From positions 15,190,001-15,254,000 of the forward strand of contig OX597827.1 of NCBI GenBank assembly GCA_951406725.2: a DNA stretch of 64,000 nt, written 5' to 3'. Origin of the DNA: Octopus vulgaris. Its lineage: Eukaryota. This document shows, one piece after another, positions 24,067 through 54,023 of the stretch (position 1 is the first letter of the stretch; every line of letters begins with the position of its first letter). The translations under genes and the position numbers were made by a program. The notes under the pieces are model-generated. The model had not been told where the DNA came from. It saw nothing but the letters and a program-made list of their open reading frames with translations, and made no database searches.

Positions 24067-25334
24067 TTGGGTCATTCCATAAATAATGCGTTTATTTTTA
24101 TAGTTCTTTTATTTTTCAAAATTAAGATAAATAAAGTTCTTTGTTAATCTAAAATATACTCTCCATTTTCTACAATGCTCTTCCATCTATCTGGTAGACT
24201 TGCAAAACCCTCTTCTAAAATTCACTTGTCCGTAACGAAAAATGCCCATTCAGTATTGTTTTGACTTCGTTTACAGAATTCATATTTTTTCCGTCCAAAT
24301 GATTTTGAAACATGCGAAATAAACGATAATCAGATGGGGTAATGTCCGGCGAATATGGTGGGTGGGCATTGTTACCCATTCAAACTGCTCCAGCCTTTGG
24401 AATGTCATCCTTGCTGTATGTGAGCCGAGCATTATCCTGATTGAAGAACACCTTTCGTCTTGAAACCAAAGGTGATCGTTTTTCTTCCAGCGCTGACTTA
24501 AGGTACTCGAGCTGCTCGCAGAAGATCTCCCTTGTTATCGTCTGGTTTGTGTTTAAAAGTTCAAAATGGACTAAACCTTTCATATCCCACCAGACAGATA
24601 ACAACAGCTTACGTGGGTGGAGACCTTCTTTAGCTTGGGGTGCCACTGTTTCTCCTTTCCCTACCCACTGTTTTCGGCGCTTGGCATTTTTATAGAGAAC
24701 ACATTTCTCATCACCAGTTACTTTTCGGTGCAAAAACGGTTCATTCGGGGTAGGTGCCAGCAAAGAAGAGCACACATTCACTCTCTGTGCACGATTAGAT
24801 TCAGAAAGTTTGTAAGGAACCCATTGACCCAATTTTCTAATTTTTATGATGGCTCACAGGTGTTGATGAATGGTTGAATGACCAAATCCAAGCTTTTCTG
24901 CTAGTTCCTCAACAGTTACGATGGGATTTTGATCCACCAGGGTTTGCAGGACGTCCTCGCCGAGCTCTACAGATCATTCAGGATGAGACTCGTTTTCTAG
25001 GCTGTAGTTTCCGGCTCGGAATTTCTGGAACCACCATTGACACTAGTTTACTATTATTGTCCGATTCCCACACACTACATTAATATTCCTCACACTTTCT
25101 GTTGCGATGTTGCCTTTATTGAATTCATAAAGCAAAATATGCCGAATGAGCTTCTTTGTCACTTGCATTATGGTTTTGAAAAAAATTGCACTCTTCATAA
25201 CTTACACTAAGAATAAGTACAAGGTAAAATTAGTACCTGCTTTTATAGCAAGTTGATGCAGGTAGTTTATCCCGTTCCCTTCCGACTTTAATTCAAGTAA
25301 TTGAAAGAGCGGCAATTTTTATGGGATGACCCAA
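24067..25334 (-). mobile_element. full-length mariner (DD34D) element with disabled transposase (about 25168-24146)
   Basis: TIRs ttgggtcattccataaa / tttatgggatgacccaa with TA TSD; MQVTKKLIRHILLYEF, WVPYKL, VTGDEKCVLY, QDNAR, HPPYSPDITPSDY; several stops and frameshifts. Confidence 0.93.
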
Positions 25335-40347: not shown

Positions 40348-40635
40348 ACACTCAAATAGACGACACAAAAAACGGACGGGTCATTCGAAGCCTCTAATCT
40401 TCAGTCAAGGACCGGATCATCCTCGCAATTTCGGCTGATTAATCTTGAGATCGCTCCGATCCGGCCAGCCCCAAGGAAAAACTAAGCTACGAGCATTAGA
40501 TTTCTCGGAAAAAGGATCGAATGTATACGAAACAAGGACAGAAAAACGGGCGTAGAGGCTTCGAATGACCCGTCCGTTTTTTGTGTCGTCTATTTGAGTG
40601 TTTTGCGTTCTTGTCCCATTTTGTATTTTTATATA
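40348..40635 (-). mobile_element. partly palindromic Penelope-like terminus carrying a structured RNA motif (40411-40470)
   Basis: Arms 40348-40396 and 40553-40601; homologous to about 53715-53860; same terminus as the 5399 and 5665 hairpins. Confidence 0.7.
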
Positions 40636-40677
40636 TTTTTTATTCATATTATTGCGGTGTAACGTACATCTTGTTCT

Positions 40678-40741
<64 letters not shown>

Positions 40742-42095: not shown

Positions 42096-42731
42096 GGATC
42101 TTTTCCTTTTGAACGGCAGACAATTTCTAGTTAACTAAAAACTTTAAAACTTCGTATACTGGTAGAATATGTCAAAATAAAACATTTTTTCTCTTGGCTT
42201 TCTTCAGAAAATTGTAATTTGTTTGTTTAACGTAGTTTAATTTTTCGAATTTTAACCAATCCTATGCTCTCTTTTGAGCTAAAATCATTTGCTGCGTCTA
42301 AAACTGAGACAACATCCTGTAACTAACCCTAAACCTCCCCCCTAACCCTAACCCTAAATTTTTTTTTCTTAATTGTTAAATTAATTTAATTGTTACGCGT
42401 GTAAAAGAAACTAAAGCAATGGAATTAAATTAATTTAACAATTAAGAAAAAATGAGGGTTAGGGTTAGGGGGGAGGTTTAGGGTTAGTTACAGGATGTTG
42501 TCTCAGTTTTAGACGCAGCAAATGATTTCAGTTGAATGGAGGTAATCGATTGGTTAAAATTGCCGAAATGCTCGGATTTTCAGATGAAGTATCTTACAAA
42601 CTATAGAATTTTCTCAATAAAACCAAGAGAAAATGGTGTTTTATAAACACATTCTACCAGTATACGAAGTTTAAAAGTGCTTAGTTAACTAGAAATTGTG
42701 TTGACATCCGCCGTTCAAAAGGAAAAGATCC
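42096..42731. mobile_element. MITE family D, long foldback variant
   Basis: TIRs plus an internal inverted repeat of about 110 bp with CCCTAA/TTAGGG arms. Confidence 0.85.
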
Positions 42732-46944: not shown

Positions 46945-47025
46945 GTCTCGTGGCCGAGTGGTTAAGGCGATGGACTAGAAATCCAGTGGGGTCTCCCCGC
47001 ATAGGTTCGAATCCTATCGGCGACG
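46945..47025 (+). tRNA. tRNA-Ser(AGA), possibly a pseudogene
   Basis: tggccgagtggttaaggcgatggactAGAaatcca, long variable arm, T arm atagg-ttcgaat-cctat, TTTT terminator at 47034. One base is missing from the 5' acceptor strand and there is an A-G mismatch at the top of the anticodon stem. Confidence 0.85.
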
Positions 47026-53038: not shown

Positions 53039-53725
53039 TAGGTCGATAAATATAGTAACAGTCAAGTACTAGGATCGTGTTTTCTTTATTTATTTCTGTC
53101 TTTCTCTCTAATTAAAATTGGAGAGACATAGACTTGGCCAGGCGTAAAATCTCCGAGACATGATGTATATCACAACGGCACTCATTCACTTCTATCGAAG
53201 AAGGAACAAATGTATTTACAAGCATTTTAGAAAAAGAGTTGGAAAGCCATCCAGTCTTGATGCAGAATTAACCTTTCCGTAGTTTATTGATTTTTATTAA
53301 TACTTTATTTATAAAAGGTATTTTCAGACCTTGTTACGATAAAACACTCGCGGGCACATTTAGCATTTTGCTATTCACTAGCTTACAAACATTATTACAC
53401 TTCTCTTTACAAATCTTGTGAAAGCCTGAACAAATGAACTATTTCGGTATATCTAAAGCTCTATTTTCGATTCCAACATTGCTAACTATCGAGTATAACT
53501 AAGGTTGTGTTTCAGTTTTTCAATTGTGATTTCTTTGAGCTTTATGATGCAGTTATACCGGTAACACTAAGGAGTTCGTTTCGTAACAGACTTGGTTTTG
53601 GATAAGACCCGACTTACGCGGCGGCGCCTTGGTCAAGTATCATCCATGTTTTTAACCGTTACTGTCTCCAAAAAAGATTTTTCGTTTCATGTTCGTCTCT
53701 GTTGCGTTGCATTCTTTCCTTCTGT

Positions 53726-53787
53726 GGCTGGCTGATTCAGAGCGGATCTCAGAATTAAACAGCCGAAATCTGCGATGAGGGATCAGT
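53726..53787 (+). ncRNA. candidate structured RNA: kink-turn hairpin plus pseudoknot
   Basis: Covaries with 40411-40470 (-); see findings. Confidence 0.55.
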
Positions 53788-54023
53788 TTCTGACTGAAGA
53801 ATGAAGGCTTTGAATGACCCGTTTGTCTTTTTGTTCGTCCCTTCGTGTATTTCATGTTATTTATTTATGTAAAGGTTTATTATCTTTTAACTAGTCTTGG
53901 GCCACAAAAGTGATTAAAATTTAGGAGACAGTGCGTAAGTCCGTTGGTGGACTGTTCCCGTTTTTGGGAGTGATAGACTTAAGCCGTCATCCTGCTTTAC
54001 CCCGCCATCTGGCCCATGGGTAC

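What the first reader, a model, noticed from the sequence alone, without database searches (positions are those of the whole stretch)
40411..40470. Unrecognised kink-turn plus pseudoknot RNA motif with covariation (second copy at 53726-53787)
Seen: minus strand ggctg-gccggatc-g-GA-gcgat-c-tc-aagattaat-cagcc-ga-a-attgc-gag-GA-t-gatccggt versus the plus-strand 53.7 kb copy ggctg-gctgattc-a-GA-gcggat-c-tc-agaattaaa-cagcc-ga-a-atctgc-gat-GA-g-ggatcagt. The 8-bp basal stem changes on both strands yet still pairs. The upper stem has a compensatory G/C insertion. The internal loop fits the kink-turn consensus (3-nt bulge, tandem G.A/A.G). The loop CAGCC can pair with the 5' GGCUG. Established: a kink-turn that enables a loop pseudoknot occurs in SAM-I and c-di-GMP-II riboswitches. 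Inference: a selected RNA fold near the end of a TA-associated Penelope-like family, perhaps a new self-cleaving ribozyme, an RT-recognition signal or an L7Ae/15.5K-binding site. I do not recognise it as a named family.
Basis: partly seen in the sequence, partly recalled or inferred. Interest (0 to 1): 0.85.

Follow-up and report, generated by a model that had tools for sequence, protein, structure and literature searches.

The report
Split-core hammerhead ribozyme in animal retroelements
A repeat with over ten thousand matches in this animal genome carries all conserved parts of a hammerhead ribozyme in a rearranged strand order with the core opened, and likely cuts its own RNA into circles that are likely copied back into the genome by Penelope-type retrotransposons.

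Summary
Its 5' strand lies upstream, detached from CUGAnGA: at that fixed position it pairs in 20 of 33 cluster representatives, against 0 of 33 directly after CUGAnGA. All four helices covary (84% of cells paired, 21 of 24 pairs with double changes). A kink-turn-like loop joins stem III to the helix bridging stems I and II. Two further helices are predicted between A9 and G10.1. The genome has 11,014 pattern matches against 161 for the control. The element is an ORF-less unit of about 0.6-0.9 kb; 24 of 30 long copies run upstream into their own tail, none into an ORF, as a circular or tandem template would give. Published type-SGC hammerheads come from metatranscriptomes and were defined with this block unbroken. 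Cleavage, expression and the partner reverse transcriptase are not shown. Verdict: new variant of a known kind.

The parts
40511..40523 (-). Helix IV, 5' strand (predicted); pairs with the trailer after CUGAAGA
40471..40508 (-). Hairpin V (predicted), abutting G10.1
40466..40470 (-). Stem II 5' strand, GGCUG (G10.1 at 40470), detached from CUGAAGA
40458..40465 (-).
   Evidence: PMC10085705
40455..40457 (-). Kink-turn-like loop, non-bulged strand (N-G-A)
   Evidence: kink-turn consensus recalled
40449..40454 (-). Block S: stem III 3' strand, U16.1 (40450), C17 (40449); predicted cut between 40449 and 40448
   Evidence: site by analogy with hammerheads
40443..40448 (-). Stem I strand 3' of the predicted cut
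40433..40437 (-). Stem II 3' strand, CAGCC
40425..40432 (-). Block G: G12 A13 A14 A15.1 and stem III 5' strand
40419..40424 (-). Kink-turn-like loop, bulged strand (3 nt, then G-A-N)
40411..40418 (-). Return helix, 3' strand
40398..40410 (-). Stem I partner strand (40410-40405; 5 pairs in this copy, 6 in most relatives) and C3-A9 core CUGAAGA (40404-40398)
40382..40397 (-). Trailer, helix IV 3' strand (predicted)
40348..40552 (-). 5'-truncated copy of the family A unit (97.6% to L014 over 205 nt)
40553..40690 (+). Inverted copy of the element's 3' tail next to the truncation point, ending in a TA tract
53637..53883 (+). 5'-truncated copy of the family B unit
53726..53800 (+). Second ribozyme copy: stem II 5' strand 53726-53730, predicted cut between 53748 and 53749, GAAA 53765-53768, CUGAAGA 53794-53800
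53710..53816 (+). Second copy with helix IV (53710-53725 with 53801-53816, predicted); this family has no hairpin V
   Evidence: (L032 row), centroid

Best explanation
The motif holds a complete hammerhead core in the order S-G-C with the 5' strand of stem II moved to the front, so the chain is opened between A9 and G10.1, and it likely self-cleaves after C17 (40449) to release unit-length RNAs that likely circularise and are likely copied into TA tracts by a Penelope-type reverse transcriptase. Shown by sequence and covariation: strand order, stems I, II, III and the return helix, conserved core and tandem GA steps, more-than-unit-length copies without an ORF. Predicted by folding plus partner swaps: helix IV and hairpin V, which sit between A9 and G10.1 and carry the rest of the element in and out of the core. 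Inferred: the kink-turn bends stem III back so that the return helix reaches the far ends of stems I and II; cleavage of tandem transcripts; ligation to a circle of about 0.8 kb; reverse transcription starting about 100-140 nt downstream of the ribozyme and running more than once round.
For: Core letters and spacing fit in both window copies. Stem II partner at a fixed 5' offset gives at least 4 of 5 Watson-Crick pairs in 20 of 33 cluster representatives (23 with offset 0 or 1), against at most 3 of 33 at slid offsets and 0 of 33 at offsets 0-4 after CUGAnGA. On 30 sequences 84.3% of 720 cells pair, 21 of 24 pairs show double changes, 0 of 500 shuffles reach this and slid partners give 26-42%. 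With a block left free in the genome search it is still mostly there: by eye 63 of 100 listed hits have exact CUGAnGA and 20 differ at one letter, about 71 of 100 have exact GAAA, about 70 of 100 have both GA steps. Leader-trailer duplex -12.3 against -10.2 kcal/mol for swapped partners, 0 of 300 swaps as low. 24 of 30 long family A copies continue upstream into their own tail or a second ribozyme and none into an ORF. [quoted passage not shown]
Against: No cleavage or expression data. No hammerhead with more than 1-2 nt between CUGAnGA and stem II was known to Eckert et al., so activity with an opened core has no tested precedent in what I read. Nested folding prefers other local hairpins to the return helix and stem III, and energies do not stand out from shuffles. 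In 7 of 33 representatives a GGCU-like stretch 5 nt after A9 could also pair with stem II, and in group C the trailer gives 3-4 weaker pairs (by eye). A first leader-trailer test limited to 12 nt upstream was negative (696 of 1000 shuffles as high). Loci were collected with patterns that fix core letters, and the shuffle control ignores relatedness. No physical link to a reverse transcriptase ORF was found, and the two autonomous Neptune-like units examined have no hammerhead core.
Confidence: 0.78

Rival explanations
1. Ordinary type-SGC hammerhead: stem II's 5' strand follows CUGAnGA after a short insertion, and the upstream GGCUG is a decoy or regulatory competitor.
For: GGCU lies 5 nt after A9 in the window's two families; 7 of 33 representatives give at least 4 Watson-Crick pairs at that offset; group C trailers can form 3-4 pairs with wobbles (by eye).
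Against: 0 of 33 at offsets 0-4; the 5' strand tracks the 3' strand through many different sequences; the trailer is predicted to be taken up in helix IV with compensatory changes.
Confidence: 0.06
2. A hammerhead-derived fold that cleaves poorly or not at all and is kept as a recognition site for the reverse transcriptase or for an L7Ae-family protein at the kink-turn.
For: It sits 100-140 nt from the fixed 3' end; tandem GA steps are conserved; minimal Penelope hammerheads cleave weakly in vitro (PMC4209133).
Against: Catalytic G8, G12 and the A15.1-U16.1 pair are kept across families of about 70% mean column identity; more-than-unit copies fit processed circles; part of group C appears to replace the kink-turn with another loop.
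Confidence: 0.13
3. A non-hammerhead element (riboswitch-like kink-turn pseudoknot, SECIS-like signal or DNA-level signal), with hammerhead-like letters by coincidence.
For: No Rfam hammerhead model matches; Naiad Penelope-like elements carry SECIS elements and insert in TA tracts (PMC8557442).
Against: All three core blocks and stems I-III occur with hammerhead spacing and covary; there is no ORF upstream for a SECIS to act on; Rfam models cannot express this strand order.
Confidence: 0.03

Closest known systems
Type-SGC hammerhead ribozymes, HRIMA-1 and variants (Eckert et al. 2023, PMC10085705)
   Same: Block order S-G-C; short linker from stem I to stem II (5 nt here, about 3 nt in group C and typically 3 nt there); a helix joining the strand 5' of stem I's partner to the strand 3' of stem II's 5' strand; full core.
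   Different: Here block C is split: stem II's 5' strand is at the front, against the paper's assumption that blocks cannot be interrupted. Both strands of the bridging helix run into stem III through a kink-turn-like loop. Two extra helices are predicted at A9/G10.1. It lies in an animal genome, whereas the paper found none in genomes of known organisms.
Minimal type I hammerheads in Penelope-like elements (Cervera and de la Pena 2014, PMC4209133)
   Same: Near the 3' end of elements with tandem and inverted truncated copies; extra sequence tolerated between positions 9 and 10.1; many divergent families in one genome.
   Different: Those are circular-order type I cores with a weak palindromic stem III that work as dimers and carry one extra nucleotide. 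This has a 5-7 bp stem III, non-circular order and whole helices at that junction.
Metazoan non-LTR retrozymes (PMC7229834; bioRxiv 10.64898/2026.07.22.740005)
   Same: ORF-less repeat unit with one hammerhead per unit; proposed circular RNA intermediate and dependence on Penelope-like elements.
   Different: Those units are about 150-450 bp with type I hammerheads, often in long arrays. These are about 615-910 bp, mostly 5'-truncated or slightly more than one unit long, and no circular RNA is shown here.
Pseudoknot-containing hammerhead, PDB 8YDC (Zhan et al. 2024, PMC11300833)
   Same: Hammerhead core with extra helices and pseudoknotted connectivity.
   Different: As described there, the loop after A9 and G10.1-C11.1 forms the pseudoknot and the layout is pistol-like with a minor-groove triplex; no detached stem II strand and no kink-turn in the parts read.
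Kink-turn plus pseudoknot riboswitches SAM-I and c-di-GMP-II
   Same: A kink-turn positions a long-range pairing.
   Different: No Rfam match; the paired strands flank a hammerhead core instead of a ligand pocket.

Membership tests
Hammerhead ribozyme class | C3-A9 core CUGAnGA directly after stem I | tested here: met
   left free, 63 of 100 exact and 20 with one change, by eye
Hammerhead ribozyme class | G12 A13 A14 A15.1 between stems II and III, A15.1-U16.1 pair, H17 | tested here: met
   U-A in 30 of 30 rows is fixed by the search pattern, one search is the free test
Hammerhead ribozyme class | Stems I, II and III with covariation; G10.1-C11.1 as commonest first pair | tested here: met
   83-89% of cells paired in the three stems; G-C in 21 of 30
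Hammerhead ribozyme class | A9 joined to stem II directly or through 1-2 nt | tested here: not met
   0 of 33 at offsets 0-4; criterion from PMC10085705
Hammerhead ribozyme class | Site-specific self-cleavage after H17 | not testable with these tools
   needs an in vitro assay
Type-SGC hammerhead | 5'-to-3' order site, GAAA, CUGAnGA | tested here: met
Type-SGC hammerhead | Helix bridging the far ends of stems I and II | tested here: met
   return helix, 79.6% of cells paired, 7 of 8 pairs with double changes
Type-SGC hammerhead | Uninterrupted block C | tested here: not met
   so not filed as type SGC
Types I, II, III (circular permutations) | Circular order of the three blocks | tested here: not met
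   order is S-G-C; no Rfam hammerhead hit
Kink-turn | 3-nt bulge followed by tandem G-A and A-G between two helices (consensus recalled) | tested here: met
   about 70 of 100 listed hits keep both GA steps when these are left free (by eye); A/B group only
Kink-turn | Sharp bend on Mg2+ or L7Ae-family binding | not testable with these tools
   needs FRET, gel shift or a structure
Non-LTR retrozyme | ORF-less repeat unit with one hammerhead per unit, in tandem | tested here: met
   units of 615-910 bp without microsatellite gaps; no match to four Penelope-type proteins in 6 units
Non-LTR retrozyme | Type I hammerhead | tested here: not met
   see above
Non-LTR retrozyme | Expressed as linear and circular monomers | tested here: inconclusive
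   only contigs of runs not on record as RNA were available
Autonomous Penelope-like element | RT plus GIY-YIG ORF between the repeats | tested here: not met
   0 of 30 long family A copies run into an ORF; no consistent link in other loci
Penelope-like insertion structure | 5' truncation, adjacent inverted copy, partial tandems, TA targets (PMC8557442) | tested here: met
SECIS | Position in the 3' UTR of an ORF with in-frame UGA | tested here: not met
   no ORF linked; SECISearch was not run

The most novel reading that the evidence does not exclude
A seventh natural hammerhead topology: an active, monomeric ribozyme whose catalytic core is opened between A9 and G10.1 into a five-way junction, braced by a kink-turn, that drives a whole radiation of circular-RNA retroelements of 0.6-0.9 kb in an animal genome. 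It would be the first non-circularly permuted ribozyme with a defined host and job, and it would show how stem III can be joined directly to the stem I-II bridging helix.
Probability: 0.6. Interest if true: 0.9.

Novelty: new variant of a known kind. Interest (0 to 1): 0.8.

Why it matters
The six-permutation scheme for hammerheads assumes that CUGAnGA stays attached to stem II, and descriptor searches of animal genomes are built on that. If this RNA cleaves, the scheme is incomplete and such searches have missed a class with thousands of copies in one genome. It places a non-circularly permuted ribozyme in a known biological setting, offers a concrete answer (a kink-turn) to the geometric puzzle Eckert et al. 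left open, and gives a short testable construct for the open question of whether Penelope-associated hammerheads make circular transposition intermediates. A core that lets arbitrary RNA enter and leave at A9/G10.1 could also be useful for circular RNA engineering.

Tried and rejected
Rfam: whole window at E up to 5 gave only low-complexity microRNA-type matches and one tRNA hit elsewhere; the two loci gave two weak matches each, E 4-7. Folding energy: no significant z-score for any of 7 folds. Leader-trailer pairing within 12 nt of G10.1: negative; the partner strand lies further upstream. Expression: no RNA holder listed; 19 of 23 rows hold part of the stretch, none on record as RNA; four runs laid were contigs and cannot show strand or ends. 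Other collections: 120 metagenome loci (2 of 64 parts scanned) and 120 viral loci (40 of 64 parts; 85 distinct scorable matches) gave 0 with at least 17 of 22 pairs, against 101 of 110 in the own genome; this is a narrow fixed-spacing test, not proof of absence. Autonomous partner: the apparent link in L115 is a chimeric junction not shared by relatives; L171 shows a separate insertion; Pfam gave only a sub-threshold RVT_1 match for one of 4 pieces. Naiad and SECIS reading rejected for lack of an ORF. Earlier scan notes: nothing in three look-ups. Literature: ten searches found no report of this arrangement; 'type-SGC' occurs in one paper. No covariance model was built and R-scape was not available.

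Full report
Observation. The two strings are present as described at 40470-40411 (minus) and 53726-53787 (plus). The window lies in a 2.8-Gb assembly of 227 contigs; its repeats looked cephalopod-like to me, which is recalled and untested. Each copy belongs to a young family: the first look found 1,974 and 1,487 candidates, and the 40 scored were 98-100% identical. Rfam has nothing meaningful at either locus.

Seven bases past the end of the motif comes CUGAAGA (40404-40398; 53794-53800). The six bases before it pair with the six after 'AUC', and GAAA follows CAGCC. These are the three blocks of a hammerhead core in the order site, GAAA, CUGAnGA. Eckert et al. 2023 (PMC10085705; I read parts 2-5 of 8 and passages, no supplements) call this order type SGC and showed that it cleaves. 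[quoted passage not shown] The predicted cut is after C at 40449 and after C at 53748.

Abundance. A pattern for the 3' half gives 11,014 matches against 161 for the reversed control; many are truncated copies. A second pattern for a diverged group ('group C') gives 2,555 against 8, partly overlapping the first, with 4 of 100 listed rows from an unrelated canonical family by eye.

Which strand makes stem II. Using core letters only, not pairing, I collected 110 distinct 73-mers in 33 clusters from the fetched loci. The five bases before GAAA pair (at least 4 of 5 Watson-Crick) with the 5' end of the motif in 20 of 33 representatives at one fixed offset, 23 of 33 allowing one base of slip, and at most 3 of 33 at other offsets. 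After CUGAnGA the count is 0 of 33 at offsets 0-4 and 7 of 33 at offset 5. The 5' strand tracks its partner through GGCUG, GGCCG, GGCCU, GGGCA, GCCCA, GCGCC, GCACC, GCGUC and GAAGG. For the pair count I aligned the window copy and 29 of the 33 representatives, dropping three with truncated or duplicated 5' ends and one of different geometry. 84.3% of 720 cells pair, 21 of 24 pairs show changes on both sides, 0 of 500 shuffles reach this, and slid partners pair in 26-42%. The shuffle control ignores relatedness; the slide control keeps it. The chain is therefore opened between A9 and G10.1, inside the block that Eckert et al. assumed unbreakable because no insertion over 1-2 nt was known there. 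Penelope minimal hammerheads do keep one extra nucleotide at this spot (PMC4209133, parts 1-2 of 4 read), so the junction has some tolerance.

Is the core conserved or only selected by my patterns? With CUGAnGA left free, the 100 listed hits were by eye 63 exact, 20 with one change, 9 with more and 8 unrelated repeats (455 hits, control 22). With GAAA and UH free, about 71 of 100 were exact and 21 had G12 to A, as CpG decay would give (482 hits, control 3). With both GA steps free, about 70 of 100 kept both (439 hits, control 1). No family-level alternative core appeared among the listed rows. This fits neutral decay of old copies from source elements with an intact core.

The kink-turn and the return helix. 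That is the position of the stem I-II interaction helix of type SGC. Eckert et al. noted that in some cases this helix is linked directly to stem III although the two are far apart in the crystal structure. Here both strands are linked through a 3-nt bulge with tandem GA steps, the kink-turn consensus (recalled). A sharp bend there would resolve the geometry; this is inference. In part of group C the loop reads AGUA opposite GAA, which resembles a bulged-G motif (recalled), so the kink-turn is not universal.

What fills the break. A first test of leader-trailer pairing within 12 nt was negative. Wider flanks showed the partner further upstream. In 31 clusters chosen for a perfect stem II, co-folding predicts that the bases right after A9 pair with a strand just 5' of a hairpin that ends next to G10.1, with first pairs changing between families. 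The mean duplex energy is -12.3 kcal/mol against -10.2 for swapped partners (0 of 300 as low). The set includes one probable chance match (L222) and two misplaced rows (L019, L424). Family B, the window's second copy, has helix IV without the hairpin. Nested folding of the 142-nt window copy recovers helix IV, hairpin V and stem II but prefers other hairpins elsewhere, with z = -1.0; it cannot hold both pseudoknots.

The element. The first copy is a 205-nt 5'-truncated piece followed directly by an inverted copy of its own tail, in TA-rich flanks, the arrangement described for Penelope-like insertions (PMC8557442, passages). Same-strand neighbours without microsatellite gaps are mostly 615-910 bp apart. 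Of 30 family A copies that reach the far end of the body, 24 continue upstream into the element's own tail or a second ribozyme and 6 stop; none enters an ORF. Six units have no match to four Penelope-type proteins. A fixed 3' end, a variable 5' end and lengths above one unit fit a circular or tandem template, as proposed for Penelope elements and shown for animal retrozymes (PMC7229834, passages; bioRxiv 10.64898/2026.07.22.740005, part 1 of 5). Young Neptune-like elements are abundant (150 of 150 scored matches identical over 142 aa; intact frames of about 780-870 aa) and are the likely helpers, but no physical link was found and two of their units lack a hammerhead core.

Against, and open. 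Cleavage and expression are not shown; the available runs were contigs not on record as RNA. Presence in other species is open. Metagenome and viral scans gave no structured match in a narrow test.

Comparison and novelty. It works like a hammerhead and meets every sequence and pairing feature except A9-stem II continuity, so I do not file it as type SGC or as type I-III. The pseudoknot hammerhead (PMC11300833, parts 1-2 of 6) has a different, pistol-like layout. Passages of PMC3088659, PMC13725137, PMC10162972, PMC6765202 and bioRxiv 10.64898/2026.09.16.752053 showed no such form; figures and supplements were not seen, and Luense et al. 2017 was seen only as a reference. Ten searches found no report of it in the held library. 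Verdict: new variant of a known kind; interest 0.8; confidence in the best explanation 0.78.

Noticed in passing
L161-L172, L203-L222 (for example G000:C9:10671000-10688000): Young Neptune-like elements with a 370-500 aa first frame overlapping a 750-870 aa RT plus GIY-YIG frame, in tandem units of about 4.4-4.7 kb; two units examined have no hammerhead core on either strand, unusual for this clade.
   Followed up: partly
L111:944 (-), L247:2716 (+), L249:1510 (-): A canonical-order hammerhead family whose stem II is also GGCUG/CAGCC with one extra A after A9; a possible relative or ancestor of the split form.
   Followed up: partly
L161:7710 (+), L128:714 (-), L120:4193 (+), L252:1839 (-): Other pyrimidine-rich repeats with minimal canonical-order hammerheads and a palindromic stem III.
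   Followed up: no
L087, L092, L103, L220, L233, L252: Group C variants in which the kink-turn-like loop is replaced by an AGUA/GAA loop resembling a bulged-G motif (consensus recalled).
   Followed up: partly
L115:4810-4560 (-): An inverted group C tail joined directly to the 5' UTR of a Neptune-like element; one case only, possibly a template switch.
   Followed up: partly
window 42297-42513: A palindrome of about 215 bp whose arms carry TTAGGG/CCCTAA repeats; gives spurious microRNA matches.
   Followed up: no
window 46945-47025 (+): Rfam tRNA match of 42.4 bits, above the gathering score of 29; tRNA gene or tRNA-derived repeat.
   Followed up: no
window 24380-24853 (-): Open frame of 157 aa resembling a mariner-type transposase fragment (recalled, not searched).
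   Followed up: no
L219:2400-2800 (+): Repeated blocks with GATTGG and TGACGTC upstream of a TATA-like box and an intron-containing 5' UTR in the Neptune-like element; looks like an internal promoter array.
   Followed up: no
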